Part shown: positions 487-12,267 of the stretch, in pieces
How positions within the stretch are numbered: the first letter of the stretch is position 1
Layout: each line of letters starts with the position of its first letter
Source: an uncultured virus (IMG/VR IMGVR_UViG_2881085443_000001)
Lineage: Duplodnaviria > Heunggongvirae > Uroviricota > Caudoviricetes > Crassvirales
Virus record (IMG/VR): IMGVR_UViG_2881085443_000001
Strand: one strand, 5' to 3'
Length of the DNA stretch: 20,000 nt
Program-made: the position numbers and the translations under genes
Notes under the pieces: model-generated
Seen by the model: the letters and a program-made list of their open reading frames with translations, nothing else
Told to the model about the DNA's origin: nothing
Database searches by the model: none

Positions 487-746
487 AATATCAGTTCTAG
501 TTCAGTTTTTTCTTTAAGAAAAATGCAGTTTTTACCTTCGTATTCTATTGTAATTCCGCAATGATCATAGTAGCGAACGGTATCGCCAACTTGTACAGAT
601 TGCACATCTGGACCTACCATGATTACTTTCCCTTCCAGCGGTTTCTTGATCGCTTCGCCCGGCAAAAATATTCCGGAAGCAGTTTGTGTGACAGCTTCCG
701 AAATTTCTACCAAAACTTTGCTGCGGATTAATTGTTTTATTTTCAT
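483..746 (-). CDS. groES: Phage-encoded co-chaperonin GroES/Cpn10 homolog
   Basis: 87 aa with KVLV, mobile loop TASGIFLP, GKVIMVGP, VQVGDTV and IEYEGK, all Cpn10 signatures. Confidence 0.9.
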   Translation of the reverse strand: MKIKQLIRSKVLVEISEAVTQTASGIFLPGEAIKKPLEGKVIMVGPDVQSVQVGDTVRYYDHCGITIEYEGKNCIFLKEKTELELIL

Positions 747-749
747 TGC

Positions 750-1469: not shown

Positions 1470-1472
1470 TTT

Positions 1473-1688
1473 TTAACTTTTATTATTAACTGAATTTACA
1501 ATTGTGGCAAACACTCCTTTTTTCCAGAACGTAATAGCACCGCCTACAGAAGTCCAGATCCTAGCTTCTTTATCATATTCAAAAGAAGTGATTCCGGTAA
1601 CGTCGATATTCATTTTGTTTGTGATACATTCTACGGTTTTAGCTGTAGCAAAATGTTGTCTTACTGCTTTTCGCGTTGGTCTTTTCAT
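1473..1688 (-). CDS. Hypothetical phage protein (71 aa)
   Basis: Operon packing, 3 nt gap to the downstream gene. Confidence 0.7.
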   Translation of the reverse strand: MKRPTRKAVRQHFATAKTVECITNKMNIDVTGITSFEYDKEARIWTSVGGAITFWKKGVFATIVNSVNNKS

Positions 1689-1819
1689 AGGATTATATAG
1701 TTTCTGTTTTTAATACCGTACCAAATCACATAAGATCCATCGGCTTTATCAATCCTTGGCTTCAACCACGTTTCTACTAAAAAAGCTATTACGATAATAG
1801 CGACTAACAATATTTTCAT
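1685..1819 (-). CDS. Small membrane-anchored protein (44 aa), not in the ORF track
   Basis: MKILLVAIIVIAFLVETWLKPRIDKADGSYVIWYGIKNRNYIIL*; fills the gap, ATGA overlap with the next gene. Confidence 0.65.
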   Translation of the reverse strand: MKILLVAIIVIAFLVETWLKPRIDKADGSYVIWYGIKNRNYIIL

Positions 1820-1822
1820 AGT

Positions 1823-2275
1823 TTATAGAATTAACAGAAAAGCGTCGCGCTGTTCCTGATTGGATTTTTTAGGGAAACCGGGAGCGATCATTTCAATTTC
1901 CTTGTGGGTAATTTTGCCGTTTGCTCCTTTCCAGTGTTTTTTTAGTGGCTTAACCTGAACAAAAGGAATGTCTTTATGAATACACATTTCTACAATCTTT
2001 CGGCCTACTTCGTGATTGGCTCCGGTTTTAGAGCCAATTCTGGAAGCAACACCAGTTCCCATATTATTGCTATGCCAATTGGTTTTTTTGATCAACCAGG
2101 AAGCCTCTATTCGAACTTCCTTTATGAATTCCTTATGGAGTTCTAAGTAGTCGAATAGTTCAAAAAAAGTTAATGTTTTCAATTCGAAAGTTTTCGTTTT
2201 CTTATCGATGCAGGCGACTCCTGATTTACTAACATCAGGATCAATTCCTATCACTAAATTTTGTAGGCTGTTCAT
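1823..2275 (-). CDS. RuvC-like (RNase H fold) Holliday junction resolvase/nuclease
   Basis: N-terminal VIGIDPD..KSGVA, VRIEA glutamate and C-terminal EQRDA acidic motif. Confidence 0.8.
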   Translation of the reverse strand: MNSLQNLVIGIDPDVSKSGVACIDKKTKTFELKTLTFFELFDYLELHKEFIKEVRIEASWLIKKTNWHSNNMGTGVASRIGSKTGANHEVGRKIVEMCIHKDIPFVQVKPLKKHWKGANGKITHKEIEMIAPGFPKKSNQEQRDAFLLIL

Positions 2276-2278
2276 GGG

Positions 2279-2425
2279 TTATTTTACTGTTGTGGTTTCT
2301 TTATAAATTGAAATCCCTAGAAATCGTATTGTAATTTCTTTTTTTGAGAAGTTCGTACAGCCTGTACCATCGTTATAATCTGGTGTTAAAACTACTGTCT
2401 TAGTAATCATTGCTAATTTTTTCAT
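2279..2425 (-). CDS. Small hypothetical protein (48 aa), not in the ORF track
   Basis: MKKLAMITKTVVLTPDYNDGTGCTNFSKKEITIRFLGISIYKETTTVK*; fills the operon gap. Confidence 0.6.
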   Translation of the reverse strand: MKKLAMITKTVVLTPDYNDGTGCTNFSKKEITIRFLGISIYKETTTVK

Positions 2426-2440
2426 AATGAGTTATTTTTT

Positions 2441-3109
2441 TTAGTTTCCTTCTTCGTTTCTGATATTCACATCATCGAGCATAATTTGTCTGCCAATGTA
2501 TTTTGTAGGATCCGCATTATACTCGTCATAAATGGAGTTGAGGTAGAAAAATTCGTGCGGTAATGATTTAGCCATTCTGGAAACAAAACCGTCAATTGCA
2601 TTGAATATATTAGTCAACATTTGTGGATCAGCACCATAAACCTGACTCAAATGTTTATTGGCTTTACGCTCTAAACCTTTGTTCGCTTTTTTAAGCAGGT
2701 TGTTTAAGTACGGATCATGCTCTACCGTTTCAATAAGATTGTCATTAGCTTCTACAGCAAGTTGGTTGTAGATAAGTGATTTTAAGACGTTGTTTTTATA
2801 CGCCATCACTTCTTCTGTATATACTTTTTCTTTCCAGGAATCGTCGCCAGCAGCATAGAATTTCCAGGTCCCGTTAGCTACTTCAAAAGAAAGCATAGCA
2901 GCCGGACAAGTGGTTAATTGGTTTCCTTCAATCAATGAAAGATACACGGAGGTTAAATCTTTTTTGGCTATTTTGTAATAGTTGCCGTTTGGGTGGCCTA
3001 CTACTCCCTGGTACATTTCTTCAATAGTGTACACTGGTTTTTCTGGAACAAAAGAAAGTACGTCTTTAGTACTTAAATCTTTTGTGCTTGCGCTTGTGTT
3101 GTTCTTCAT
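2441..3109 (-). CDS. Hypothetical phage protein (222 aa)
   Basis: Long ORF in the operon; no recognised motif. Confidence 0.8.
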   Translation of the reverse strand: MKNNTSASTKDLSTKDVLSFVPEKPVYTIEEMYQGVVGHPNGNYYKIAKKDLTSVYLSLIEGNQLTTCPAAMLSFEVANGTWKFYAAGDDSWKEKVYTEEVMAYKNNVLKSLIYNQLAVEANDNLIETVEHDPYLNNLLKKANKGLERKANKHLSQVYGADPQMLTNIFNAIDGFVSRMAKSLPHEFFYLNSIYDEYNADPTKYIGRQIMLDDVNIRNEEGN

Positions 3110-3314
3110 TTACTCGTTTTTTTGGTTTAACTGTTTTACTTTCCCTTGTATTCCTTTTACTTTTACCGATGTGAAACCGGCCACATATTTTACATTTGTA
3201 AATTTCAGAAGCTCCATCTGAATGCTCATTCTGTAAAAAATAGTTTGCTGATAACTTTGTTTTGTGCTGCGTCTTTCCGGCGCAACCTTTCATAAAGCTA
3301 TTAGTACATGCCAT
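3066..3314 (-). CDS. Small basic Zn-finger-like phage protein
   Basis: C..K..H and YKCKICGRFHIG motif, basic C-terminal tail. Confidence 0.7.
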   Translation of the reverse strand: MACTNSFMKGCAGKTQHKTKLSANYFLQNEHSDGASEIYKCKICGRFHIGKSKRNTRESKTVKPKKRVNEEQHKRKHKRFKY

Positions 3315-3319
3315 TGTTC

Positions 3320-3622
3320 TTAATTTTGATTCTTATTTAAATCGTGCCATAAAGCCTCTACAGTGATTATTAATTCCTCTCCGATCTTACCAAAGTTCAT
3401 TTCAAAACAATAGTGTTCTATCATACAGAAACCGTCTTGTTTAGGAAAATGAGTTTGTAGAAAACTAATAATAGCTTTTATCAGAATGCTATTATCATAA
3501 GGGTTCATTCCATCGGAATTAAATATTTCAGCTAAAGTGACAGCGTTATTCCTGTCTTTAAGTATTTGTAACCTAATAGCCTCTATTAATAGAATAAAAC
3601 TATCTATTGTAATTCCTACCAT
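3320..3622 (-). CDS. Hypothetical phage protein (100 aa), first gene of the leftward operon
   Basis: Follows the predicted promoter at 3648-3655; IEHYCFEMNFG motif. Confidence 0.75.
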   Translation of the reverse strand: MVGITIDSFILLIEAIRLQILKDRNNAVTLAEIFNSDGMNPYDNSILIKAIISFLQTHFPKQDGFCMIEHYCFEMNFGKIGEELIITVEALWHDLNKNQN

Positions 3623-3647
3623 TTGTTTTTTTCGTTTTAAGCTTTTA

Positions 3648-3655
3648 CAAATATA
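3648..3655 (-). promoter_or_regulatory. Leftward promoter -7 element (TATATTTG)
   Basis: Matches the Bacteroidota sigma-A -7 consensus TAnnTTTG, 25 nt upstream of the ATG at 3622. Confidence 0.7.
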
Positions 3656-3661
3656 ATTATT

Positions 3662-3678
3662 TTATACTAATAGTGTAA
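3662..3678. promoter_or_regulatory. Operator family A site (TTATACTA-A-TAGTGTAA)
   Basis: 17-bp palindrome with 1 mismatch, just upstream of the -7 box; related copies at 4684, 4733, 7325, 10698 and 10763. Confidence 0.6.
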
Positions 3679-3693
3679 TAATTTGTTACCAAA

Positions 3694-3732
3694 TTACCAA
3701 CCAGTGGTAATATAGTTACCACCCAGTGGTAA
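3694..3732. promoter_or_regulatory. Two tandem 17-bp palindromic operators, family B (TTACCA-N5-TGGTAA)
   Basis: TTACCAACCAGTGGTAA at 3694-3710 and TTACCACCCAGTGGTAA at 3716-3732, 22-bp period; extra half site TTACCA at 3686-3691. Confidence 0.7.
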
Positions 3733-4728
3733 TATCAAATGACAAATTAAATTATAACTTATTGAATAATAATAATATACATGTCAAAACAACCAAATAA
3801 ACTCCATAGTAATTACTTTGAGTAACTTAGTATTATTGTAATAAACAAATAAATAATCAATTTTAACATTTATTAATTAATAGTTTATTGTTAATGTGTT
3901 GATTGTTAGTATATTATAAATATTAATATTTTAGTATTATTCTTATATTTTATATATGATTGATTTGTAGGGAGGGTATAGGGGTACGGAGGCGTTGCGA
4001 AAAAAAAGGAAACCGGATTTATTTCGGGTATGGGGTGCGTTTTTTCCCCGGATCGCTACAATTTTTCGACTTTTTTATTCCTGCTGTTACGACTGGTTTT
4101 TTGCGTACTACTACATACTTAATCCTAGTTAGGTCACATTAATACTTCGTTAACACCTATCAATTAAGGAACTAGCAATATTATACTGTAATTATCCCGA
4201 CAATCGACACGACAACTACAAAAATCTATGTAATTAATCAATAAATTATAATCTCAACCCTCTGAGCTTTCGATATTTCAAAATTAATTGGCATTGGTAC
4301 GGTATAATTAAACCATAACATCAGTAAAAGCGCTGATTCTACTGACTTACAAGCGAATCCAGTACCATTACAATATCACCCTATAAAACAAAATAGCATC
4401 TAAATAATAAATTCAACAATTAAATCAATTAAGCAATCAAAAAAGCAATCAAATAAACAGTATTAAAACAATCTAATTAAATATGATATAAGTATAAATT
4501 AATAGATCACATTAATATCTAATGAAGGAATAAATATAAAACTTAACACCTGGTAAAACATTATATAAGTATAACATATTGATATTAATATAAAGGAATA
4601 AGCGACGATAAAATAATCTAGTAATATAATACGATAGCAGCAAAAACAAGGCTTTAAAACCAACTATAAATAAAAGCAATAGTTTTTCTTATTAGTATAA
4701 ATATTTCGTATCAAATTAATAGTATCAA

Positions 4729-4762
4729 TTTGTTATACTAATGATATAAAGTCCTATATTTG
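4729..4762 (+). promoter_or_regulatory. Rightward early promoter (TTTG ... TATATTTG) with an operator A site in the spacer
   Basis: TTTG at 4729-4732 and TATATTTG at 4755-4762 (spacer 22 nt, slightly long); TTATACTAATGATATAA at 4733-4749. Confidence 0.7.
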
Positions 4763-4766
4763 TAGG

Positions 4767-4800
4767 GTACTAAAGAAGTACAAAAAAGCTCATTGAAATA
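4767..4800 (+). promoter_or_regulatory. Putative boxB-like hairpin plus boxA-like antitermination site
   Basis: GTACT-AAAGA-AGTAC hairpin at the predicted 5' end, followed by GCTCATTGAAA, which resembles boxA (GCTCTTTAACA type). Confidence 0.45.
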
Positions 4801-4812
4801 TCGAATAAAAAA

Positions 4813-4862
4813 TAACGGTTTACAATATGATTGTACTAGGTCGAGCGAAACGGCAGCCGCTA
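4813..4862 (+). ncRNA. tRNA-like T-loop element 1
   Basis: P1 CGGTT/AGCCG, P2 TACAAT/ATTGTA, P3 GTCG-AGCGAAA-CGGC stacked directly on P1. Confidence 0.5.
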
Positions 4863-4884
4863 ACTAATTATAAAAACTAATCCA

Positions 4885-5103
4885 ATGAAAAAGTTAACAA
4901 CACATTACATAATATTAATACTTATAGCTTCTTACTTCATGTTTAACGGTTGTATTAATAGAACGCCAGCGAACGACTGGAAAGCATACGCCAACGATTT
5001 ACAAAGCGAAGGTTGGAGTATTGAAGCAGCGGAACACATTGCAAAGGTAGAGTTTAAGATCCTGCCAATTGACGAAGAATACACCGCATATATTGAAGAC
5101 TAA
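4885..5103 (+). CDS. Small exported/lipoprotein-like protein (72 aa), first early gene
   Basis: MKK + hydrophobic stretch + FNGC (imperfect lipobox). Confidence 0.7.
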   Translation: MKKLTTHYIILILIASYFMFNGCINRTPANDWKAYANDLQSEGWSIEAAEHIAKVEFKILPIDEEYTAYIED

Positions 5104-5150
5104 AAACAATAACAAAACAAATATTTAAAAATCATAAAAAAAACAAAGCC

Positions 5151-5279
5151 ATGAACACAAGCAACACTCCGCCAGTAGAAGACAAAACAAAAGAAATTTT
5201 AGGAAAAGTAATTTTTTGGACAGTAGTAACAATTATAATAGTATTTATTTATTCAAGTACTCCGCTACGTTACAGATAA
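5151..5279 (+). CDS. Small single-TM peptide (42 aa), not in the ORF track
   Basis: MNTSNTPPVEDKTKEILGKVIFWTVVTIIIVFIYSSTPLRYR*; A-rich leader aaagccATG shared with other early genes. Confidence 0.6.
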   Translation: MNTSNTPPVEDKTKEILGKVIFWTVVTIIIVFIYSSTPLRYR

Positions 5280-5330
5280 AATCATAAAACCAACAAATAA
5301 AACATTTAAAAACTTATAAAAATTTATATC

Positions 5331-5876
5331 ATGGAAAACACTGCAAAATTATTCGTAACAGATTACGCTAGTTATAACGAAGGAAAACAATTTGAGTTTG
5401 GTTATTGGGTTGAGTTAAACGATTTTAACGATGCTGAAGAATTCAATACATACATAACAACACATTTTAATAATGTTGTAGGATTACAAGACTTTGAGCC
5501 AATGTACACCGATTTCGAGGGGTTTCCTGATTCATTATATAGTGAGTCTATGAGTGAATCAGAACTTGAAAAAATATTTAAATATATAGAACTGGATTAC
5601 GAAAATAAAGACGACAGCGAAAAAGTTTCTTTATGGAATGAGTATTGTTCGGAGCAAAGGAATGAAGACGAAATACATAATTTCGACGATGATTTTTTTG
5701 ATATTTTTTTTGAAGGTAAACCAATGGAAGCAGCAAAGGCAGCGAGTTTTGGCGATGTTAATTGGTCAGATGATTATATAAGTTTTGACGGTTACGGGAA
5801 CTTAAAAAGCTTGTCAAATCCTATTCACGCAATTGACGAAAACGCACTAATTGAGTGGTTAATTGAAAATTTATAA
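5331..5876 (+). CDS. ardA: ArdA-like antirestriction DNA-mimic protein
   Basis: N-terminal LFVTDYASYNEG...G.WVEL.DF.D.EEF...EPMYTDFEGFP matches ArdA domain 1; about 43 D/E versus about 10 K/R in 181 aa (hand count). Confidence 0.8.
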   Translation: MENTAKLFVTDYASYNEGKQFEFGYWVELNDFNDAEEFNTYITTHFNNVVGLQDFEPMYTDFEGFPDSLYSESMSESELEKIFKYIELDYENKDDSEKVSLWNEYCSEQRNEDEIHNFDDDFFDIFFEGKPMEAAKAASFGDVNWSDDYISFDGYGNLKSLSNPIHAIDENALIEWLIENL

Positions 5877-5887
5877 TCTATTACAAC

Positions 5888-5934
5888 GCCTTCGCAAAGA
5901 AATGGTTTTCGGTTCGATACCGACGAAGGCACAA
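5888..5934 (+). ncRNA. tRNA-like minihelix, element 2
   Basis: 7-bp stem GCCTTCG/CGAAGGC plus T-arm TCGG-TTCGATA-CCGA (GGTTCGATACC); no D or anticodon arm. Confidence 0.55.
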
Positions 5935-5970
5935 ATTTAAAACTAATTATTTAATCTAAAAACTTATATC

Positions 5971-6525
5971 ATGGCTAACAATTGTATGAATTACATCACT
6001 ATCAACGGAAATGATAATGATATTAAAGAGTTTTCACAACTTTTAAAAATAGACGAACAACAACCAAACGGTTATGACATTTACGAAAACTTATGTAATG
6101 AGTTTGGGAAATCTGAAAATGACGGAAGATGGTTTGATATTCAATTAGTAGAACAAGACAAAAATACTATTGTTATATCTGGAGATAGTGCCTGGTGTCC
6201 TTGTCTTGAATTATTTACAAAAATAAGCGGCAAATATACATCATTAGAAATTCATTATGAATACGAAGAAAGCGGATGTGATTTTGCAGGTTTTGCAGAA
6301 ATAAACGAAGGTAATTGCGATGATAATTGTTTTGGATATTGGGAAGGAAAAGCAAAAAATGACTATGAATACGCTTTTCAAACTGCTTTTGAAGATATAG
6401 AATATTACTACGAAGAAGATAGCGAAGAAGATTTTATATATAGTTCTATGTATAAAGCATTTGAACCAAAAGAACAAGCGGAACTTTTAGAGGAATTTAG
6501 AAATAAATTAATCGAGCAAAACTAA
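5971..6525 (+). CDS. DUF1281/YubB-like ferredoxin-fold acidic protein
   Basis: MANNCMNYITING start and DSAWCP...L...IS.KY..LEI...YEESGCDFAG motif; very acidic. Confidence 0.72.
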   Translation: MANNCMNYITINGNDNDIKEFSQLLKIDEQQPNGYDIYENLCNEFGKSENDGRWFDIQLVEQDKNTIVISGDSAWCPCLELFTKISGKYTSLEIHYEYEESGCDFAGFAEINEGNCDDNCFGYWEGKAKNDYEYAFQTAFEDIEYYYEEDSEEDFIYSSMYKAFEPKEQAELLEEFRNKLIEQN

Positions 6526-6617
6526 TGAAGAAGCAACCCAACACAACAGAAAACCGATGTAAGATAATTTTATCGGTTTTCTTTCTCCTGATTACTTCAA
6601 TTATTATTCAACTTTAA
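6525..6617 (+). CDS. Possible tiny TM peptide (30 aa)
   Basis: TAATG overlap; MKKQPNTTENRCKIILSVFFLLITSIIIQL*; overlaps a terminator-like hairpin, so uncertain. Confidence 0.35.
   Translation: MKKQPNTTENRCKIILSVFFLLITSIIIQL
6548..6586 (+). terminator. Intrinsic terminator-like hairpin within the early operon
   Basis: AGAAAACCGAT (6548-6558) / ATCGGTTTTCT (6572-6582), then TTCT. Confidence 0.5.
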
Positions 6618-6628
6618 AAAATACGATT

Positions 6629-6793
6629 ATGAATATATATTATAGCATCCGAGTAATGAAAGCAAAGACCGAAGAAAAAGCCAGAAAAAAAATGTGTGAT
6701 GATAATTTTTTTGAAGATCACGAATTATGCGACGTGATTCTCTCAGAACAAGAGCTGAAAGACTATTTAAAGAATAAAAATAAAAAGCCATGA
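6629..6793 (+). CDS. Small hypothetical protein (54 aa), not in the ORF track
   Basis: MNIYYSIRVMKAKTEEKARKKMCDDNFFEDHELCDVILSEQELKDYLKNKNKKP*; ATGA overlap with the next gene. Confidence 0.6.
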   Translation: MNIYYSIRVMKAKTEEKARKKMCDDNFFEDHELCDVILSEQELKDYLKNKNKKP

Positions 6794-6969
6794 AAAAAGC
6801 AATTATTATTATTTGGACATTCCTAACAATTGTTTTATTAATACTCGGAATTTACGGCTATTACATACAAAACAAAATAATTGATATTGAAAAACGGGCC
6901 TATCAAAAACTGACAGAAGAAAACAAAGATCTAATTGAATTTATAATATTTGGCGAAAGTCAAGAGTAA
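6790..6969 (+). CDS. Small membrane-anchored protein (59 aa), not in the ORF track
   Basis: MKKAIIIIWTFLTIVLLILGIYGYYIQNKIIDIEK...DLIEFIIFGESQE*. Confidence 0.65.
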   Translation: MKKAIIIIWTFLTIVLLILGIYGYYIQNKIIDIEKRAYQKLTEENKDLIEFIIFGESQE

Positions 6970-6981
6970 AAAAATAAAACC

Positions 6982-7212
6982 ATGAATCAAGCGCAAAAAA
7001 AAGAATCTCTTACTAAATTTTTAAGAGTTTCAGACAAAAATCAAAAGTATTTTATTACTACGGATCAAATAACAGGCAAACGTTTTGCAGTTGCAGAATT
7101 CGGAGAACCGGGAGAAGTAAACATCAAAAGTAATTTTATGAAATTCAAAGAAATGGAATGCTTTTTATTTGGAGTAAACGCAGTAAAAAACAATACTTTA
7201 AAAATAAACTAA
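6982..7212 (+). CDS. Hypothetical early protein (76 aa)
   Basis: ORF track; A-rich leader; operon packing. Confidence 0.75.
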   Translation: MNQAQKKESLTKFLRVSDKNQKYFITTDQITGKRFAVAEFGEPGEVNIKSNFMKFKEMECFLFGVNAVKNNTLKIN

Positions 7213-7224
7213 AAATCATATCTA

Positions 7225-7296
7225 ATGAAAAACTTTAGAGATCAAATCGAGAATTTTATAATCAGATTAACAAAAATGTTATTCTCACAAGTATAA
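7225..7296 (+). CDS. Possible tiny peptide (23 aa)
   Basis: MKNFRDQIENFIIRLTKMLFSQV*; 12 nt after the previous stop. Confidence 0.4.
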   Translation: MKNFRDQIENFIIRLTKMLFSQV

Positions 7297-7345
7297 AAAA
7301 ATTAACTATTTTAATACAAATAATTTTTACTAATAAGAAAAATTT

Positions 7346-7435
7346 ATGGAATTATCAGAACGAATAAAATACAATATAGGCGCCGGACTACTTTTTTTAT
7401 TAGCAGCGTCCGGCATGTACTTAGCATCATATTAA
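7346..7435 (+). CDS. Tiny TM peptide (29 aa)
   Basis: MELSERIKYNIGAGLLFLLAASGMYLASY*. Confidence 0.45.
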   Translation: MELSERIKYNIGAGLLFLLAASGMYLASY

Positions 7436-7447
7436 CACTAAAAAAAA

Positions 7448-7503
7448 GCCGTTAAAATCTTTAAAATGGAGATTTATTTGTAGCGATAACAGAAACGGCA
7501 CTA
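7448..7503 (+). ncRNA. tRNA-like T-loop element 3
   Basis: P1 GCCGTT/AACGGC, P2 AAATCT/AGATTT, P3 TTTGT-AGCGATA-ACAGA stacked directly on P1. Confidence 0.5.
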
Positions 7504-7532
7504 AGAAAATTTTAATCAAAAACCTTTATAAA

Positions 7533-7694
7533 ATGAAACAAACTATTTTGACGCACAAAGATCCGGAAATGCTAGGAAAGGAATTAATTACTGAACTGCA
7601 GAAACTAAATACTGATTTTGTAATAATTCACAGCTCTACTTTTTACGATCACATTGACGAATTTTTTAAAGCAATCATACTATACCACGAATAA
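7533..7694 (+). CDS. Small hypothetical protein (53 aa), not in the ORF track
   Basis: MKQTILTHKDPEMLGKELITELQKLNTDFVIIHSSTFYDHIDEFFKAIILYHE*. Confidence 0.6.
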   Translation: MKQTILTHKDPEMLGKELITELQKLNTDFVIIHSSTFYDHIDEFFKAIILYHE

Positions 7695-7704
7695 ATAAAA
7701 ACTC

Positions 7705-7776
7705 ATGAACAAGAAGCAATCTATTATTTTAATCATCATTTTACTTGCCATCATTACTGCTGCAGGTATATACTAA
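7705..7776 (+). CDS. Tiny TM peptide (23 aa)
   Basis: MNKKQSIILIIILLAIITAAGIY*; sits between two genes with 10-nt gaps on each side. Confidence 0.5.
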   Translation: MNKKQSIILIIILLAIITAAGIY

Positions 7777-7786
7777 AAAAAAAGCC

Positions 7787-7969
7787 ATGGAAAAATTAGT
7801 TAAAAAAAGCAGCCTTAGATCTGGACTAAACAGATTTTTTAGAATGACACAACGAATCGAAATTACTAAACTACCTACTAATACGGTAACAGTAAGAAAT
7901 GTTTATAAAAACAAGCAAATTATTGAAGTAACAAGTGATACTTTTGCTAGGTTTAACTCTAGAATTTAA
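7787..7969 (+). CDS. Small basic hypothetical protein (60 aa)
   Basis: Start revised to ATG 7787 (aaagccATG leader) instead of TTG 7745. Confidence 0.6.
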   Translation: MEKLVKKSSLRSGLNRFFRMTQRIEITKLPTNTVTVRNVYKNKQIIEVTSDTFARFNSRI

Positions 7970-7987
7970 TTCAAAACAAAAATAAAA

Positions 7988-8200
7988 ATGACAGAAATAG
8001 AAATCTTTGCAAAATTTGTAAAGGACAAAAGGACAGCGTTAGGAAAATCAATTGCTGATTTATCTGAAGAAGTTTTCAACGATAGAAAAAATAGATACAT
8101 TAGTGACCTGGAGAACGGAAGAAGAAAAGGAATTACTATTGATGTAATGGGTAAGATACTGGCTGCACTAAACACAGAAATTAGTTATAAAGAACTGTAA
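7988..8200 (+). CDS. XRE-family HTH regulator (Cro-like)
   Basis: VKDKRTALGKSIADLSEEV...YISDLENGRR..ITIDVMGKILAAL. Confidence 0.88.
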   Translation: MTEIEIFAKFVKDKRTALGKSIADLSEEVFNDRKNRYISDLENGRRKGITIDVMGKILAALNTEISYKEL

Positions 8201-8228
8201 AATTATTTAAACTAAAATAAAAATAAAA

Positions 8229-8522
8229 ATGGAAAAAGAAAAAGAAATCAAAAACACTGCAGATGGAGAGAGAACAGTAGAAATTCCTTTGAAAAGGTAT
8301 GACGAATTGTTAATTAAAGAGAAAATGACCATGGATAGTGATAAAGAATTAAAGCAGCTTACAGATGTTTTAGTAATATCCAACAGTTTAACTATGGAAC
8401 TTATAGCAGAAAAAGGAGCTCTACAAAATCAAAATATTGAATTATTAAATCTAAGAAAAAGTAAAACTTGGACGGAAATATTCACTAGTATAAAAAATAA
8501 AATTTTATTTAAAAGTGAGTAA
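8229..8522 (+). CDS. Hypothetical coiled-coil protein (97 aa)
   Basis: TVEIPLKRYDELL motif, helical; last gene before the terminator. Confidence 0.7.
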   Translation: MEKEKEIKNTADGERTVEIPLKRYDELLIKEKMTMDSDKELKQLTDVLVISNSLTMELIAEKGALQNQNIELLNLRKSKTWTEIFTSIKNKILFKSE

Positions 8523-8540
8523 TAGCGTATAAAAAAATAT

Positions 8541-8572
8541 AAAAAAAGCGACCCTTAGTGGTCGCTTTTTTT
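8541..8572. terminator. Bidirectional intrinsic terminator
   Basis: AAAAAAAGCGACC-CTTAGT-GGTCGCTTTTTTT between convergent operons. Confidence 0.85.
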
Positions 8573-8953
8573 GTTTAATGATTTTTCTATTCTAAGCAGA
8601 ATACTTTCTATATTTTTCAAAACAGTAAAAGATTCTACGCTGTAATCTGGCGACTCAATTGCAATAGTTTTACCGAACAAATTAGCTTGGTTTCGTTTTA
8701 ATTTATCGTTTAAAGCAATTGGATCCTGGCCTTTTTTCAAGAACCAGTAATTAATCTCCGGGAAGCGCTTAATTATTTTATCAATCAAATTATCACTAAT
8801 TTTATTTCGATCATGCAAAATATGATCAATTGAAGAGTGACTAGCGTACCCTAATTCCTTAGAAAATCCTAATGCAGAATACCTTAATTCTGCTAAAACC
8901 CTTTTCATTATTTCAGAATCAGGTAAATTTTTGTTGTTTTCATTATTTGCCAT
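8555..8953 (-). CDS. Phage repressor-like HTH protein (CI-like, no obvious S24 peptidase domain)
   Basis: FSKELGYASHSSIDHILHDRNKIS..LIDKIIKRFPEINYWFLKKG, an XRE-type HTH common in Bacteroidota. Confidence 0.8.
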   Translation of the reverse strand: MANNENNKNLPDSEIMKRVLAELRYSALGFSKELGYASHSSIDHILHDRNKISDNLIDKIIKRFPEINYWFLKKGQDPIALNDKLKRNQANLFGKTIAIESPDYSVESFTVLKNIESILLRIEKSLNKKSDH

Positions 8954-8992
8954 TTTCGTTTATTTTTATGTTGTTAATATTTTTTTACTTGA

Positions 8993-9310
8993 TTAAATTG
9001 TATTATTTATTCTCTGAAATCCATCTACTAAATCTTCATGTGACATTGCGTCGTATTCATTCAAGTCAATAGTATCGACATACTCCAAGAAGGAAAGTAA
9101 CACTTTATTTTGCTCAATAACAGACAATTTTGCACTACTAATTATATTCCAGTTTTTCAAAAAAGAAGATAAAGATTCATACGGACATTTCCCCGTACCG
9201 TCCAGTCTATTTATCGATAGCGATTTTATATCAGACAATTTTAATTCATATTCCTTTCCGTTTTCATATCCTAATGAATTCGTTCCTGTAAATTTTGCTT
9301 TAATTTCCAT
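8993..9310 (-). CDS. Hypothetical protein (105 aa) between integrase and repressor
   Basis: Starts 1 nt after the integrase stop; likely co-transcribed. Confidence 0.75.
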   Translation of the reverse strand: MEIKAKFTGTNSLGYENGKEYELKLSDIKSLSINRLDGTGKCPYESLSSFLKNWNIISSAKLSVIEQNKVLLSFLEYVDTIDLNEYDAMSHEDLVDGFQRINNTI

Positions 9311-9311
9311 C

Positions 9312-10607
9312 TTAATTTACTTTCTTATAATTTATATCCCAAACTTTTTTCAAGCTCTCAGCGTGTTCTCTATTCGTTTTCTTAATATAGTCTAGCATCT
9401 GTTCCTCGCTCTTCCATCCACATATAGCCATCAAAGTACTATTACTTACCGTTCCGTAAATGTTAGTCGCAAAACTTCTCCTGCAAATGTGGCTTGTTAT
9501 CAGTTCGTGTTTTGGGTATAAACTTACTACTTTTCTTTTAACTTTAGTTTTAGGATCAACTTTTGCAACCCCGCCCATCATTTGAGTATCAAATTTCAAA
9601 ATTCCCGCTATTGTTTTAATATGTTTATTGAATTTAGGATCACAAATTTTTTCTGGCAGCGCTCCGTTTCTTTTCTTCAAAATATCGTGTATCATCCAGT
9701 GAACAGGAATAGAAACCCAAGTTTTTGTTTTCTCAGTTTGAATTTCAATAAAATCATCATGAAAATTATCTAATTTAAGTTTCGATAAAAAATCTGAAAT
9801 ACGTAAACCGGTCCACAATCCAATAATTAAATTGTCTCTCACATTATCTAGCGTAGGATTTTCAGAAAAATCATGGTTATAAATTTTATTTATTTCCAAT
9901 TCATCAAAATAAGGTTCTTTGTAATCGTGGTTTTCTTTAGTAACAAAAACTCTATTTTTATAACTCTGATTAATCAAAATGTTTTCTGCTTCTGCTCTAC
10001 CGCAAAAGAATTTAAATCTTCCAATCATCCTGCGAGCTGTTTTTTCAGCGTAAGATTCAGCCGTTAGAAATTCAGAAAAATTATCCAGCAAAGTATCATC
10101 AATTGAACTAAATTTTATTTTGTCTTTTCCTTCAAATTTCTGGATCAATTTATTCAAAATAGTATAATGGCTTTGTGTTCTTTCTTCCATGTATTTATCA
10201 GCCGAAACTTTAAATTTTGGTGCTTTCTCTTTTAGCCACCAGGTAGCAAAATCAGTCAAATAAAGTTTATGAAGTTCTGGCGCTTTTTTCAGTTCATTAG
10301 ACGGACGATTGAAAAATTTGGCTACGCTTTTTTCAAGCCAAATTTTATTCAAAATTTCACCTTCCATAAAATCCTCATTGACTGCATTAAAAAGATGGAT
10401 CTTTAATTCTGATAATTTAGAATTTAACTTGTCTCTATTCGGGACCGCTATAACGTTTCGTATTTTCTGGTTATCCTGGTCCCAATACTTAGGATCAATA
10501 AATACATTAATACCAGCGCCAGTATCAGTACTTCTTCCGCTAATGAAACGGATACGGATTTCTGAAGGAGATTTTTTACCTACAATGTAGTACTTTAGTG
10601 TTGCCAT
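9312..10607 (-). CDS. int: Phage tyrosine integrase (431 aa)
   Basis: N-terminal arm-binding-like and SAM-like domains; catalytic TGLRISD (R), EKTK (K), HICRRSFAT (HxxR), CGW (W), LDYIK (Y); start revised to MATLKYY at 10607. Confidence 0.95.
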   Translation of the reverse strand: MATLKYYIVGKKSPSEIRIRFISGRSTDTGAGINVFIDPKYWDQDNQKIRNVIAVPNRDKLNSKLSELKIHLFNAVNEDFMEGEILNKIWLEKSVAKFFNRPSNELKKAPELHKLYLTDFATWWLKEKAPKFKVSADKYMEERTQSHYTILNKLIQKFEGKDKIKFSSIDDTLLDNFSEFLTAESYAEKTARRMIGRFKFFCGRAEAENILINQSYKNRVFVTKENHDYKEPYFDELEINKIYNHDFSENPTLDNVRDNLIIGLWTGLRISDFLSKLKLDNFHDDFIEIQTEKTKTWVSIPVHWMIHDILKKRNGALPEKICDPKFNKHIKTIAGILKFDTQMMGGVAKVDPKTKVKRKVVSLYPKHELITSHICRRSFATNIYGTVSNSTLMAICGWKSEEQMLDYIKKTNREHAESLKKVWDINYKKVN

Positions 10608-10655
10608 AATTTTCGTTTTAATTTGATCAAAAGAACACTCTTCCCAAAGCATTCC

Positions 10656-10677
10656 ATCCCGACAATATCCCGACCAG
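10656..10677. repeat. Tandem direct repeat, probable integrase arm-type sites
   Basis: ATCCCGACAAT ATCCCGACCAG, 11-bp period, about 110 bp from the att core. Confidence 0.55.
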
Positions 10678-10697
10678 TTTGAACCAATACAAACATA

Positions 10698-10714
10698 TTA
10701 TACTACAAATATAA
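10698..10714 (-). promoter_or_regulatory. Promoter -7 box (TATATTTG, 10706-10713) for int-hyp-repressor, overlapped by an operator A-like site
   Basis: TTATACTACAAATATAA contains both the perfect half site TTATACTA and CAAATATA. Confidence 0.55.
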
Positions 10715-10767
10715 AATTATTTTTACTATAAATACAAAATATATGTACTTTTATTCTAATACGTGTA

Positions 10768-12267
10768 TTAATAGTATAAATCCGTCTTCCAGTCAAGGTC
10801 ACTTAATCTATTGTTTACCAAATAGATACAGTTAATAATTTCGTTGAGTCGGGTGGTTTGGAATTGGTTTTCCCGAAACGTGAAATTTTCGGGATAAATT
10901 AAACCAATTAGTTCTCTAGTATCAGCTAAACTACTGTTTTCACAGGCTTCTCCGAGCTTTAAAAGGTTTTCCAATCCTGTATTCATTAATTGCTCAATAT
11001 TACCCTTATCATCATCTGCATTCCCAATCTGTTTTTCTAAATTACTTATGATGCCATTATATTCTTTTTTCATAAGATTGTAATCTTCAACCTCGATTTT
11101 TTCAGTTACCAATAAGTTCCTTGCAACTGATAATTTCTTTTCATATTCCGAAATCTGTTCCAGCGACTTTCTCTTTTCATTAGCTATAATCCCTGTATGC
11201 TCTCTATAAGCTTCAAGTAGCACAGCAGTATATAGTTTCTTAACTGGTTCTAAAGGTTTGAATTTATTTAACTGTTCAATAAATATCTTGTTTGCTATTT
11301 CGGAGTTGACTCTCCATTTACAGAGCTTATCACAATGATAGTAATAGTAATATTTGTTTCTCCCTTTGCATTTACTGCCTGTGAGCTTTCGTCCGCACTG
11401 TGGACACTGGAAAAAACCTCTTAGAGGAAAATTTTCTATTGTTCTGACCTTAGGCCTATACGTTCTGGATTTACCGTCAAGAACATCCTGCACTCGGTAA
11501 AATAGTCCTTCACTGATTATTGCTTCATGTTGTCCATCCACCCATCGGACCTCTTCATCTTTATATTTAGGAACTACGATTTTCCCACAATACAGCGGAT
11601 TACGCAAAATAACCCACATGTTACTCTTAGCAATGCGCAACCCTTTTTCCTTTGCCATCTGGTAAATGGATTCAGTGCTGAAAGCATTTTTTGCAATCTG
11701 CTCAAATACCCATATAAGCTGAGTTGCTGCCTTCGGCTCGGGGGCTATATATTTTTTTCCGTCTTCAGTTGCTTTATTAACATAACCATAAGGAGCCATG
11801 CCCATATGCCTTCCTTCTTTCTTACCGCGTCTGAGCCCTTGAAATGTATTGAGTGCCCTTCTGTCATTTTCTACTTCTGGTGCTGCCAGATAAAATGCAA
11901 GCATCATCTTATTTTCTGGGACACTTAAATCAAGAGGCTGCTCTATAGCCTGAGGTTCAACACCTAGTTTTCTTAACAGGTTTATCATTTGATAGGCATC
12001 CCCTGCATTACGACTGAACCTGTCCCATTTCATGAAAAGAATCAGGTCTACTTTATTTTTATGTTTTTTAAGATTAACCAAAAGTTTTTTCCACTGTGGC
12101 CTGTTAAAAGTCTTTGCAGAATGATCTTCATAGATTACGTTGCGTATTTCCATATGATTAATGCTACAATATTTTCGCAACATTTCTTCCTGATTACGTT
12201 GTGAAAAACCTTTCTCAGCCTGCTCGTCAGTGCTGACCCTTATATATAAATCTGCTATCTTACTCAT
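10768..12267 (-). CDS. Large serine recombinase (ICE integrase), 499 aa
   Basis: YIRVSTDEQ (catalytic Ser), DRFSRN, APYGY, ILRNPLYCG, GQHEAII, Zn-ribbon CPQCG...YYHC, coiled coil. Confidence 0.95.
   Translation of the reverse strand: MSKIADLYIRVSTDEQAEKGFSQRNQEEMLRKYCSINHMEIRNVIYEDHSAKTFNRPQWKKLLVNLKKHKNKVDLILFMKWDRFSRNAGDAYQMINLLRKLGVEPQAIEQPLDLSVPENKMMLAFYLAAPEVENDRRALNTFQGLRRGKKEGRHMGMAPYGYVNKATEDGKKYIAPEPKAATQLIWVFEQIAKNAFSTESIYQMAKEKGLRIAKSNMWVILRNPLYCGKIVVPKYKDEEVRWVDGQHEAIISEGLFYRVQDVLDGKSRTYRPKVRTIENFPLRGFFQCPQCGRKLTGSKCKGRNKYYYYYHCDKLCKWRVNSEIANKIFIEQLNKFKPLEPVKKLYTAVLLEAYREHTGIIANEKRKSLEQISEYEKKLSVARNLLVTEKIEVEDYNLMKKEYNGIISNLEKQIGNADDDKGNIEQLMNTGLENLLKLGEACENSSLADTRELIGLIYPENFTFRENQFQTTRLNEIINCIYLVNNRLSDLDWKTDLYY
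10788..10802 (+). other. Putative att core: duplicated tRNA 3' end (tRNA-Arg-like) at the prophage/ICE junction
   Basis: TCCAGTCAAGGTCAC reads as T-stem 3' strand + acceptor 3' strand; from memory it resembles Flavobacteriaceae tRNA-Arg(ACG) ...GAATCCAGTCGAGGTCAC; lies between two integrases. Confidence 0.6.

What the first reader, a model, noticed from the sequence alone, without database searches (positions are those of the whole stretch)
4813..7503. Three sequence-divergent tRNA-like T-loop elements punctuate the early anti-defence operon
Seen: three intergenic elements (4816-4859, 5888-5930, 7448-7499) share almost no primary sequence but have the same architecture. Each has a closing stem (5-7 bp) whose 3' strand follows, with no spacer, a 4-5 bp arm capped by a 7-nt NNCGAWA loop (AGCGAAA, TTCGATA, AGCGATA); two have a single extra 5' arm. 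Each ends 25-40 nt before a start codon. Known: the coaxial acceptor + T-arm (about 12 bp) is what RNase P, RNase Z and CCA-adding enzyme recognise. Inference: a structure-conserved RNA family that either cuts/stabilises the early mRNA into units, releases tRNA-mimic decoys (for example against anticodon nucleases such as PrrC, which are triggered by type I R-M inhibitors; an ArdA-like gene is adjacent), or acts in antitermination. I cannot assign it to a named RNA family.
Basis: partly seen in the sequence, partly recalled or inferred. Interest (0 to 1): 0.8.

Follow-up and report, generated by a model that had tools for sequence, protein, structure and literature searches.

The report
tRNA-like RNA punctuation in phage ardA operon
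Three small tRNA-shaped RNA structures sit between genes of a prophage's early anti-restriction operon, in the slots where related phages carry self-cleaving hammerhead ribozymes, so they are probably cutting marks for the host's tRNA-processing enzymes.

Summary
The three elements (4816-4859, 5888-5930, 7448-7499, + strand) exist as described. They belong to a conserved structured family that no Rfam 15 model matches.

A covariance model built only from three metagenomic instances finds these three sites and nothing else in the window. All 23 of its hits in 398 kb lie on the ardA-sense strand. On 14 distinct instances, 98% of cells pair and 13 of 14 pairs show compensatory changes. No hit appeared in 150 related genomes.

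The shape is a tRNA without its anticodon arm: an acceptor-like stem, an optional 4-bp D-arm-like hairpin, a roughly 4-nt linker, and a T-arm with a G-C-closed 7-nt loop. Some relatives carry the canonical tRNA loop (TTCGATT).

The host region is a temperate Bacteroidota prophage next to a CTnDOT-type conjugative element. The elements lie 7-17 nt after a stop codon, most often ardA's, and 23-47 nt before the next start.

Related ardA operons carry hammerhead ribozymes in the same slots, and five loci carry both kinds. Hammerheads flanking ardA were published in 2011.

Best reading: processing punctuation cut by host RNase Z and/or RNase P. Cleavage is inferred, not shown. The anticodon-nuclease decoy idea is not supported.

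The parts
4755..4762 (+). TATATTTG, a match to the Bacteroidota -7 promoter box TAnnTTTG (consensus recalled). Apart from 7939, it is the only + strand match between 3622 and 8600. It would place element W1 in the 5' UTR of the operon.
   Evidence: pattern list; a consensus match only, not shown to function
4816..4859 (+). Element W1: closing stem 4816-4820/4855-4859, D-arm-like hairpin 4821-4835, linker 4836-4839, T-arm 4840-4843/4851-4854 with loop AGCGAAA at 4844-4850.
   Evidence: R1 hit E 1.7e-5; R2 54.6 bits
4862..4881 (+). A-rich leader with two AACTAAT boxes between W1 and the ATG at 4885.
   Evidence: the same box follows elements and hammerheads in relatives
4885..5103 (+). First ORF of the operon (72 aa, no family match).
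5331..5876 (+). ArdA-like anti-restriction gene (181 aa).
   Evidence: Pfam ArdA 29.5 bits against cut-off 27; PHROG anti-restriction protein; 177 homologs
5888..5930 (+). Element W2, 11 nt after the ardA stop: closing stem 5888-5894/5924-5930, unpaired linker 5895-5908 containing GG, T-arm 5909-5912/5920-5923 with the tRNA-type loop TTCGATA at 5913-5919.
   Evidence: R1 hit E 2.2e-5. L023 and L028 carry a copy in the same position with a conserved linker and fully compensated stem changes.
5931..5970 (+). Leader of the next gene, with ACAAAT at 5931 and AACTAAT at 5941-5947.
5971..6525 (+). Gene with a DUF1281_C (Api92-like ferredoxin-like) domain.
7346..7435 (+). Small ORF (29 aa) that ends 12 nt before W3.
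7448..7499 (+). Element W3: closing stem 7448-7453/7494-7499, hairpin 7455-7475 with a loop ending in TGG, T-arm 7477-7481/7489-7493 with loop AGCGATA at 7482-7488.
   Evidence: R1 hit E 2.1e-3; R2 35.6 bits
7533..7694 (+). ORF (53 aa) that starts 33 nt after W3.
9312..10652 (-). Tyrosine integrase of the prophage. An ardA operon followed by an integrase on the opposite strand recurs in viral contigs.
   Evidence: homologs 39-45% identical lie downstream of ardA in L117, L036, L132, L133, L078 and L113

Best explanation
The three elements are cis-acting RNA structures in the polycistronic early transcript of a temperate Bacteroidota phage. Each mimics a tRNA without its anticodon arm. It has an acceptor-like stem stacked on a T-arm (9-13 bp together), a T-loop-like 7-nt loop closed by a G-C pair, and a small D-arm-like hairpin or G-containing linker that could dock on that loop.

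I propose that they work as punctuation. Host tRNA-maturation endonucleases recognise the shape and cut the transcript. RNase Z would cut just 3' of the closing stem, and/or RNase P at its 5' edge. This is what self-cleaving hammerhead ribozymes do in the same slots of related operons.

The expected result is a discrete ardA mRNA with a folded, exonuclease-resistant 3' end, and downstream cistrons that start with short, unstructured A-rich leaders.

Shown here: the family exists, it covaries, it is strand-specific, it has a fixed intercistronic geometry, it occupies the same slots as hammerheads, and the host has RNase Z and RNase P.

Inferred, not shown: the elements are transcribed, they are cut, and which enzyme cuts them.
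For: 1. The family is real.
- R1, built from 3 non-window sequences, gave 23 hits at E<=10 in 398,146 bases over both strands. All 23 are on the ardA-sense strand, and they include exactly the 3 window sites.
- On A5 (14 distinct instances), 98.3% of 181 cells pair, against 61.0% in shuffles. 13 of 14 pairs have compensatory changes. The covariation score is 0.856, against 0.206 in shuffles (0 of 500 reach it) and at most 0.138 when partners are slid.
- RNAalifold returns the same structure.
- R2 hits only the three window sites above E 0.01 in the own genome, and none of 150 other genomes of the same family.

2. The shape is tRNA-like.
- The loop-closing pair is G-C in 13 of 14 instances. Loop position 3 is invariant and positions 4 and 5 are at least 90% conserved, as C-G-A, like C56-R57-A58.
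- W2 has TTCGATA.
- Further elements on the sense strand in ardA loci carry exactly GTTCGATTC. Rfam's tmRNA model picks up two of these T-arms (L130, E 0.0018; L126).
- All 9 TTCGATT-loop elements whose linker I read have GG in it (my own inspection of the sequences).
- The strict variant descriptor finds only W1 and W2 in the 3.84-Mb genome.

3. The geometry is consistent. The element starts 7-17 nt after the upstream stop in 15 of 16 instances; the 16th, W1, is in the 5' UTR. It ends 23-47 nt before the next ATG in 13 of 16. The upstream gene is ArdA-like in 10 of 16.

4. Hammerheads fill the same slots.
- My descriptor finds 18 hammerheads (15 distinct), all on the sense strand, in 801 kb of loci. 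It finds 1 poor hit in the 3.84-Mb genome.
- In 12 of 16 rows the hammerhead lies at most 16 nt after a stop, and in 10 of 16 rows 13-28 nt before an ATG.
- Rfam hammerhead models are the best local matches for L047 and L058, at 24.5 and 26.5 bits, below the gathering score.
- Five loci carry both a hammerhead and a T-loop element in one operon: L078, L133, L057, L126, L130.
- Perreault et al. 2011 (PMC3088659; passages read) report a triple hammerhead arrangement flanking ardA in an A. tumefaciens prophage that cleaves in vitro and in vivo, and ardA directly downstream of a hammerhead in three Legionella strains.

5. The host has the enzymes. RNase Z scores 312 bits, over the cut-off, and type-A RNase P RNA scores 188 bits. 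Only 6 of its 44 tRNA genes end in CCA.

6. RNase P is known to cut non-tRNA substrates, including phage M3 and C4 RNAs and mRNAs (review PMC11143913; passage read).
Against: - No RNA data exist, and no sequencing run could be listed, so neither transcription nor any RNA end at the elements is shown.
- Most loops read AG at positions 1-2 instead of the tRNA TT. Whether that loop adopts a T-loop fold is untested.
- The stacked helix is 9-13 bp rather than a fixed 12 bp.
- No instance has CCA.
- The base before the stem is mostly A or C.
- W1 folds no better than shuffled sequence.
- No Rfam tRNA or tmRNA model scores the window elements, even in an 81-nt search.
- Some ArdA homologs have only a plain hairpin (L022, L026, L117) or nothing (L110, L112, L114, L034) after the gene. 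The slot may therefore only need a folded 3' end, without tRNA-specific recognition.
- Homologs of the genes after W1 and W3 in L113, L039 and L029 lack an element upstream.
- The hammerhead calls rest on my own descriptor. Every Rfam score for them is below the gathering threshold.
- All loci were fetched through ArdA, so the ardA association is partly built in.
Confidence: 0.45

Rival explanations
1. Uncut structural element. The fold acts only as a 3'-exonuclease barrier or stabiliser for the upstream (ardA) cistron, as an insulator that keeps the next A-rich leader unstructured, or as the binding site of a phage or host protein (for example an antitermination factor). No tRNA-enzyme cleavage is involved.
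For: Plain stable hairpins without a U-run occupy the same position after other ArdA homologs (L022, L026, L117/L036). The elements sit at a fixed short distance after stop codons. The AACWAAT leader box also occurs in element-less spacers of the same operon (5116, 5292), so the leader works without an element.
Against: A barrier or insulator does not explain the conserved G-C-closed 7-nt C-G-A loop, the canonical TTCGATT versions with GG linkers, or the three-way-junction architecture kept through full stem turnover. The elements that fill the same slots in relatives are self-cleaving ribozymes, meaning cutters. No candidate binding protein was identified.
Confidence: 0.25
2. A new class of small self-cleaving ribozyme. 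The element cuts itself, as its hammerhead neighbours do. The logic is that of the RAGATH searches, which (as I recall) found twister-sister, pistol and hatchet among motifs near hammerhead and twister ribozymes.
For: It has the same slots, strand and spacing as hammerheads, and it co-occurs with them in five operons. It is a compact three-way junction of 42-52 nt with strong covariation. No known family matches.
Against: Very few nucleotides are conserved outside the T-loop-like C-G-A and its closing G-C pair. Known self-cleaving classes have larger invariant cores (recalled). The 5' hairpin is dispensable (W2, L023, L028). The loop is interchangeable with an exact tRNA T-loop, which points to mimicry rather than catalysis. 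No hammerhead core is present.
Confidence: 0.08
3. Released tRNA-mimic decoys. The excised 45-nt mini-tRNAs soak up or mislead a host factor or defence nuclease that reads the tRNA elbow or acceptor end.
For: The setting is anti-defence (ArdA). tRNA-like shape.
Against: No anticodon arm is present, so anticodon nucleases such as PrrC cannot be the target. The position is tightly tied to stop and start codons, and hammerheads fill the same slots, which argues for a cis role. The closing-stem sequence is free to vary, so no specific tRNA identity is mimicked.
Confidence: 0.07
4. The structure forms in single-stranded DNA, as a priming, promoter or recombination site, rather than in RNA.
For: A conjugative element with SSB, DUF932 and PRTRC genes lies next door. 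ArdA genes of plasmids are expressed from ssDNA promoters (recalled).
Against: The operon belongs to the prophage, not to the conjugative element. All 23 R1 hits are on the mRNA-sense strand. G-U pairs (7 cells) outnumber non-standard cells (3) on that strand, and they would be C-A mismatches on the other strand. The T-loop consensus only reads as such in the sense orientation. W3 folds well only on the + strand (z -2.92 against -1.08).
Confidence: 0.03

Closest known systems
Hammerhead ribozymes flanking ardA in prophages (Perreault et al. 2011, PMC3088659; passages read)
   Same: Sense-strand, intercistronic position in phage ardA operons, several per operon, a few nucleotides after a stop codon and about 15-45 nt before the next start. 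Found here in 15 distinct sequences across the fetched ardA loci, and together with T-loop elements in five loci.
   Different: The window elements lack the CUGANGA / GAAA / UH core. They have a T-loop arm instead, and would need a trans-acting enzyme to be cut.
tRNA-like domain of tmRNA, and tRNA minihelices (acceptor stem plus T-arm)
   Same: An acceptor-like stem continuous with a T-arm, a reduced D-region, and no anticodon arm. The Rfam tmRNA model matches the T-arm of two canonical-loop relatives.
   Different: No mRNA-like domain, no CCA, 42-52 nt in total, embedded in an mRNA. The tmRNA and tRNA models do not score the window elements.
tRNA punctuation of mitochondrial transcripts, and the MALAT1 mascRNA (recalled, not read here)
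   Same: tRNA or tRNA-like folds inside long transcripts serve as RNase P / RNase Z cut sites that define mRNA ends.
   Different: Those are eukaryotic or organellar, and mostly full tRNAs. Here the fold is a phage-borne, anticodon-less mimic, and cleavage is not yet shown.
RNase III sites that divide phage T7 early mRNA, whose first gene is the anti-restriction gene 0.3 (recalled, not read here)
   Same: A phage early operon that opens with an anti-restriction function is cut into units at structured intercistronic sites by a host endonuclease.
   Different: Different enzyme and different fold: long irregular hairpins rather than a three-way junction with a T-loop.
Non-tRNA RNase P substrates of phages and operons: phi80 M3 RNA, P1/P7 C4 RNA, polycistronic mRNAs (review PMC11143913; passage read)
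   Same: Precedent that bacterial RNase P cuts phage RNAs and operon mRNAs with tRNA-like features.
   Different: None of these is a recurrent, covarying intercistronic family. No sequence relation was tested.
STAXI motif (Rfam RF01728; association with Ssb, topoisomerase, antirestriction and integrase genes recalled)
   Same: A structured motif near anti-restriction and integrase genes of mobile elements.
   Different: The model finds nothing in the window or the whole genome. STAXI is a repeated pseudoknot (recalled), not a T-loop junction.

Membership tests
tRNA (Rfam RF00005 / ARAGORN) | Cloverleaf with D-arm, anticodon arm and T-arm | tested here: not met
   ARAGORN finds no tRNA in the window. 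No tRNA match at the gathering score, at E<=10 over 4600-7700, or in 81 nt around W2. No anticodon arm in any parsed instance.
tRNA-like mimic (works like a tRNA acceptor/T-arm) | T-arm: 4-5 bp stem closed by G53-C61 with a 7-nt loop carrying C56-R57-A58 | tested here: met
   The closing pair is G-C in 13 of 14 instances. Loop position 3 is invariant and positions 4-5 are at least 90% conserved, as C-G-A. W2 has TTCGATA. Relatives have GTTCGATTC.
tRNA-like mimic (works like a tRNA acceptor/T-arm) | Acceptor stem continuous with the T-arm, about 12 bp in total | tested here: inconclusive
   No spacer between the arm and the 3' strand of the closing stem in any parsed instance. Totals are 9-13 bp: 9, 11 and 11 for W1, W2 and W3, and 10-13 for canonical-loop relatives.
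tRNA-like mimic (works like a tRNA acceptor/T-arm) | D-loop/T-loop elbow contact (G18-G19 with positions 55-56) | not testable with these tools
   A G is present in every 5'-hairpin loop or linker, and GG in all 9 TTCGATT-loop elements whose linker I read, and in W2 (my inspection). The partners never vary, so covariation cannot test the contact. No RNA 3D tool is available.
RNase P / RNase Z substrate | Cleavage at the 5' edge (RNase P) or after the discriminator (RNase Z) | not testable with these tools
   The host has both enzymes. No RNA run was listed. No CCA follows any element.
Hammerhead ribozyme | Core CUGANGA, GAAA and UH joined by three helices | tested here: not met
   The core pattern occurs once in the window, at 16731 inside a gene, and not at the elements. 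The descriptor finds no hammerhead in the window.
STAXI (RF01728) | Match to the Rfam covariance model | tested here: not met
   No match in the window or in the whole genome at E<=1.
Intrinsic terminator | G+C-rich hairpin followed by a U-run | tested here: not met
   The terminator scan of 3500-9000 lists no site at the elements. The flanks read CTAACTAA, ACAAATTT and ACTAAGAA.

The most novel reading that the evidence does not exclude
The T-loop junction is itself a new class of small self-cleaving ribozyme, or an obligate partner of a phage factor, that replaces hammerheads in phage ardA operons. It would be a catalytic RNA built on a tRNA-elbow-like fold. The evidence does not exclude this. 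The elements share slot, strand, spacing and operons with hammerheads, and no known family matches them.
Probability: 0.08. Interest if true: 0.92.

Novelty: new variant of a known kind. Interest (0 to 1): 0.7.

Why it matters
Why ardA is flanked by self-cleaving ribozymes has been an open question since 2011 (PMC3088659). A second, unrelated RNA fold in the same slots shows that selection acts on the cut or the defined mRNA end, not on the ribozyme as such. That makes the question testable.

If host RNase Z or RNase P does the cutting, this would be tRNA punctuation of a bacterial virus's early mRNA. It would stand beside the two other ways phages divide early transcripts: T7's RNase III sites (recalled) and self-cleaving ribozymes.

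It would also tie phage anti-restriction expression to the host tRNA-maturation machinery, which a host cannot easily give up.

In practical terms, a 43-nt shape-defined processing module that works in Bacteroidota, which lack Shine-Dalgarno-driven initiation (recalled), would be a compact insulator for operon engineering in that phylum.

Tried and rejected
Searches that gave nothing usable:
- blastn of 4500-8500 against 50,697 phage records: no match.
- ArdA protein over 300 genomes of the same family: only 2 real relatives, so I moved to metagenome and viral collections.
- Sequencing runs: none was listed, so no RNA-end test was possible.
- Earlier findings of this scan by words, place and sequence: nothing.
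- Exact pattern (T-arm plus trailing box) in IMG/VR: 4 loci, of which only L141 scores as a weak member.
- R2 on the 28 viral ArdA loci: strong hits only in L132 and L133. The closest viral relatives, L110-L112, have no element.
- Three of five record handles (L078, L042, L100) were not held.

Ideas considered and dropped:
- The trailing AACWAAT box as part of the motif. It also occurs in element-less leaders and after hammerheads, at variable distance from the stem, so it is a leader feature. It is not enriched in the window as a whole (26 found, 19.9 expected).
- The same box as a minus-strand TAnnTTTG promoter. It fits only some instances (inspection).
- Remnant of a tRNA-borne attP. This is excluded by the paired 5' strand and the compensatory changes.
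- N4-type hairpin promoter, or a lambda nut/boxB-like site. Nothing supports either, and the structure is on the sense strand.
- Decayed tRNA pseudogenes. The same trimmed architecture recurs with covariation.
- A tertiary covariation between loop positions 1-2 and the linker G motif. It is not clean on inspection.
- Sense-strand tRNA genes filling the slot in relatives. ARAGORN finds only 3 tRNAs in the loci, all on the minus strand.

Literature:
- Weinberg 2015 (the RAGATH paper) is not held, so I could not check whether a similar candidate is listed there or in its supplement.
- The main text of Weinberg 2017 (PMC5737381) has none of my search terms.
- Full-text searches found no description of such an element. 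The RAGATH listing and passages read from three papers on it added nothing either.

Full report
**What is there**

- W1 (4816-4859) has a 5-bp closing stem, a 6-bp hairpin, a 4-nt linker and a 4-bp arm with loop AGCGAAA.
- W2 (5888-5930) has a 7-bp closing stem, a 14-nt unpaired linker and a 4-bp arm with loop TTCGATA.
- W3 (7448-7499) has a 6-bp closing stem, a hairpin and a 5-bp arm with loop AGCGATA.

In each, the 3' strand of the closing stem follows the arm directly. The minimum-free-energy folds reproduce this for all three. W2 and W3 fold better than shuffles (z -3.03 and -2.92). W1 does not (z +0.24). The elements end 25, 40 and 33 nt before start codons.

On its own it proves little.

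**Context**

The window lies in a 3.84-Mb bacterial genome.

Its left part is a prophage. The 40 kb upstream encode a terminase, a portal, a collagen-repeat tail fibre, a GH108 lysozyme and a protein with a crAss muzzle C-terminal domain. Window genes 235-3622 (- strand) match phage families.

The + strand cluster 4885-8522 holds an ArdA-like gene (5331-5876; Pfam 29.5 bits against cut-off 27), a DUF1281_C gene and an HTH gene. It is followed by a tyrosine integrase on the - strand.

From the serine recombinase at 10768 rightwards lies a CTnDOT-type conjugative element: SSB, DUF932, PRTRC, then TraE-TraO homologs, MobC, a relaxase and a coupling protein.

ArdA homologs 67-70% identical occur in IMG/VR viral contigs. 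The ardA operon with a downstream integrase recurs there.

Between 3622 and 8600, the only + strand matches to TAnnTTTG (consensus recalled) are at 4755 and 7939. That would put W1 in the 5' UTR, and W2 and W3 inside the transcript.

**Is it more than chance?**

I fetched 122 loci around ArdA relatives: 14 from genomes, 80 from metagenomes and 28 viral.

A covariance model built from three of these (L037, L050, L100; no window sequence) gave 23 hits at E<=10 in 398,146 bases searched on both strands. All 23 are on the ArdA-sense strand. The three window elements are among them (E 1.7e-5, 2.2e-5, 2.1e-3), and they are the only window hits.

For the covariation count I re-searched 11 of the 97 sources. 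I kept those with distinct hits, dropped the duplicate loci L033, L038 and L039, and let the weak hits fall below E 0.05. L012 was included but did not pass. This gave 14 distinct instances (A5).
- 98.3% of 181 cells pair, against 61.0% in shuffles.
- 13 of 14 pairs have compensatory changes.
- The covariation score is 0.856, against 0.206 in shuffles (0 of 500 reach it) and at most 0.138 when partners are slid.

The alignment is fitted to the model, which favours the structure. However, RNAalifold returns the same structure, and the hand parses agree.

W2, L023 and L028 sit in the same position. They share the linker AAAGAAAT while their 7-bp closing stems differ at most positions, with full compensation.

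The refined model R2 finds only the three window sites in the own genome above E 0.01. It finds nothing in 150 other genomes of the same family, under stricter filters. In a 99%-complete 72-kb phage record it finds one strong site.

**Strand and molecule**
- G-U pairs fill 7 cells and non-standard pairs 3 on the sense strand.
- W3 folds well only on the + strand.
- The loop reads as a T-loop only in the sense orientation.

Together with the all-sense distribution, this makes an RNA in the mRNA the natural reading.

**Anatomy**

The common plan has five parts in order:
- a closing stem of 5-8 bp;
- directly after it, a hairpin with a stem of mostly 4 bp and a loop that always contains a G, often AAG or TGG;
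- a linker of about 4 nt;
- an arm of 4-5 bp closed by G-C (13 of 14) with a 7-nt loop of the type [A/T][G/T]CGA[A/T]A;
- directly after it, the 3' strand of the closing stem.

This is the order acceptor, D-arm, variable region, T-arm, acceptor of a tRNA with the anticodon arm left out. In W2, L023 and L028 the hairpin is replaced by an unpaired linker.

Two short matches of Rfam's tmRNA model (L130, E 0.0018; L126) led to further elements that R2 had missed. They have the same plan but an exact tRNA T-arm, GGGTTCGATTCCC.

A descriptor for G-TTCRANN-C arms with a contiguous closing stem found more of these on the sense strand: L017, L051 (the same sequence as L125), L057, L066, L113 and L126. 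L008 and L114 carry them on the minus strand, downstream of homologs of the window's leftward operon. I set aside L112 and L143 as doubtful, and the true tRNAs.

In the host genome the same descriptor hits 34 tRNA sites and 8 others. The 8 include W2 and a site that looks like the tmRNA 3' end. The strict variant-loop descriptor hits only W1 and W2.

All 9 TTCGATT-loop elements whose linker I read have GG in it (my inspection), as D-loops do.

No Rfam family matches the elements, at the gathering score or in small local searches. STAXI, the motif I recalled as linked to anti-restriction and integrase genes, finds nothing in the genome.

**Geometry**

I parsed 16 instances by hand.
- 15 start 7-17 nt after the upstream stop codon. 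The exception, W1, is in the 5' UTR.
- 13 end 23-47 nt before the next ATG. Two have larger gaps, and one has no ORF called downstream.
- The upstream gene is ArdA-like in 10.

Because the loci were fetched through ArdA, this last figure is biased.

The A-rich stretch after the element carries an AACWAAT box. The box also occurs in element-less spacers of the same operon (5116, 5292), so it belongs to the leaders rather than to the fold.

**The key comparison**

A sub-threshold Hammerhead_3 match in L023 proved to be a complete type III hammerhead in the 5' leader of that operon. That is the position W1 holds in the window.

A core pattern search and a three-helix descriptor then found 18 hammerheads (15 distinct sequences) in 801 kb of loci. 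All are on the ArdA-sense strand. The same descriptor gave one poor hit in the 3.84-Mb host genome and none in the window.
- In 12 of 16 rows the hammerhead lies 0-16 nt after a stop codon.
- In 10 of 16 rows it lies 13-28 nt before an ATG.
- Three lie directly after ArdA: L016, L058, L069.
- Three lie directly before it: L047, L054, L072.
- They are followed by the same kind of A-rich leader.

Rfam's hammerhead models are the best local matches for L047 and L058 (24.5 and 26.5 bits) and list L041 and L078. All of these scores are below the gathering threshold, so these calls rest mainly on my descriptor.

Five loci carry a hammerhead and a T-loop element in the same operon: L078, L133, L057, L126 and L130.

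Perreault et al. 2011 (PMC3088659; passages read) had already reported two things. A triple hammerhead arrangement flanks ardA in an A. tumefaciens prophage and cleaves in vitro and in vivo. And ardA lies directly downstream of a hammerhead in three Legionella strains.

The window's three T-loop elements are therefore the positional counterpart of a published ribozyme arrangement.

**How it most likely works**

What these slots have in common is an RNA cut that gives ardA and its neighbours defined ends.

A tRNA-shaped fold offers that cut through host enzymes. RNase P cuts at the 5' edge of an acceptor stem, and RNase Z cuts after the discriminator. Both read the acceptor/T-arm stack and elbow rather than the sequence (established knowledge; review passage on non-tRNA RNase P substrates read).

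The host has both enzymes. Only 6 of its 44 tRNA genes end in CCA, so endonucleolytic 3' processing should be routine there.

Most of the hammerheads are type I. These cut near their 3' end and leave the folded ribozyme on the upstream RNA. By analogy I favour a 3' cut by RNase Z for the intercistronic elements, and possibly a 5' cut for W1. This is inference.

No RNA data were available, because no run could be listed.

**Against a tRNA-specific reading**
- Most loops carry AG, not TT, at positions 1-2.
- The stack is 9-13 bp.
- W1 is thermodynamically unremarkable.
- Some ArdA homologs have only a plain hairpin, or nothing, in the slot.
- Homologs of the genes after W1 and W3 lack elements elsewhere.

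**Rivals**
- An uncut stabiliser, insulator or protein site: 0.25.
- A new self-cleaving ribozyme: 0.08.
- Released decoys: 0.07. Anticodon nucleases are excluded as targets because there is no anticodon arm.
- An ssDNA structure: 0.03.

**Novelty**

tRNA-like folds as processing signals are known. So are phage operons cut at structured sites, and so is the hammerhead-ardA link. What appears to be new is this family: an anticodon-less tRNA mimic that fills the same slots as hammerheads in phage anti-restriction operons.

No Rfam 15 model matches it. Full-text searches found no description. I could not see Weinberg et al. 2015 or its supplement, where motifs found near hammerheads were listed.

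Noticed in passing
L023:320-370 (+); also L016:3061-3122 and 4267-4316, L019:3735-3788, L041:1412-1467, L047:2446-2502, L054:2775-2831, L057:2408-2465, L058:594-646, L069:3564-3625, L072:3568-3624, L078:171-225, L114:6846-6895, L126:1182-1255, L130:4394-4447: Minimal hammerhead ribozymes (mostly type I; type III in L023 and L019) on the sense strand of ardA operons in Bacteroidota and other phage contigs. All score below Rfam's gathering thresholds, so annotation pipelines would miss them.
   Followed up: yes
window 6548-6590 (+): A 10-bp G+C-containing hairpin with a 13-nt loop, followed by TTTCTTTCT, directly after the DUF1281_C gene. It is a possible internal terminator or attenuator that would split the + strand cluster into two units. 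The simple scanner did not list it because of the long loop.
   Followed up: partly
window 9312-12267 (-), continuing in L108/L109: A prophage and a CTnDOT-type conjugative element lie back to back. The tyrosine integrase (9312-10652) and a large serine recombinase (10768-12267) are only 115 bp apart. Then come SSB, DUF932 and PRTRC genes, tra genes, MobC, a relaxase and a coupling protein. The exact ends of the two elements were not mapped.
   Followed up: partly
L108:8796-14185 (G000:C12, about 360.5-365.9 kb): Inside the conjugative element lies a + strand cluster with an ABC-3C middle component (MC3), DUF3732, a 37-kD nucleoid-associated protein family member and a Hypoth_Ymh protein. It is a defence-like cargo island.
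   Followed up: no
L113 (after ardA, about 6560-6605), L029:1042-1097, L031:867-920, L033:274-328: A variant of the element in which the arm carries an 11-nt loop containing ATCGAAG within the shared string GTAGCATCGAAGC. It has the same closing stem and trailing box. Whether it forms an extended T-arm is unresolved.
   Followed up: partly
window 4862, 4875, 5116, 5292, 5941 (+): AACWAAT boxes recur in the A-rich leaders of the early genes, with or without an element upstream, and also after hammerheads in relatives. They may be a translation-initiation feature or a phage-specific leader feature. The box is not enriched in the window as a whole.
   Followed up: partly
G000:C12:352863-352938 (+) and G000:C5:12040-12115 (-): Two near-identical 76-nt stretches turned up in the descriptor scan, one just right of the window. 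This suggests a second copy of part of the conjugative element on another contig.
   Followed up: no
window 8541-8572: A 13-bp hairpin flanked by A-runs and T-runs lies between the convergent genes ending at 8522 (+) and 8555 (-). It looks like a bidirectional intrinsic terminator that closes the early cluster.
   Followed up: no
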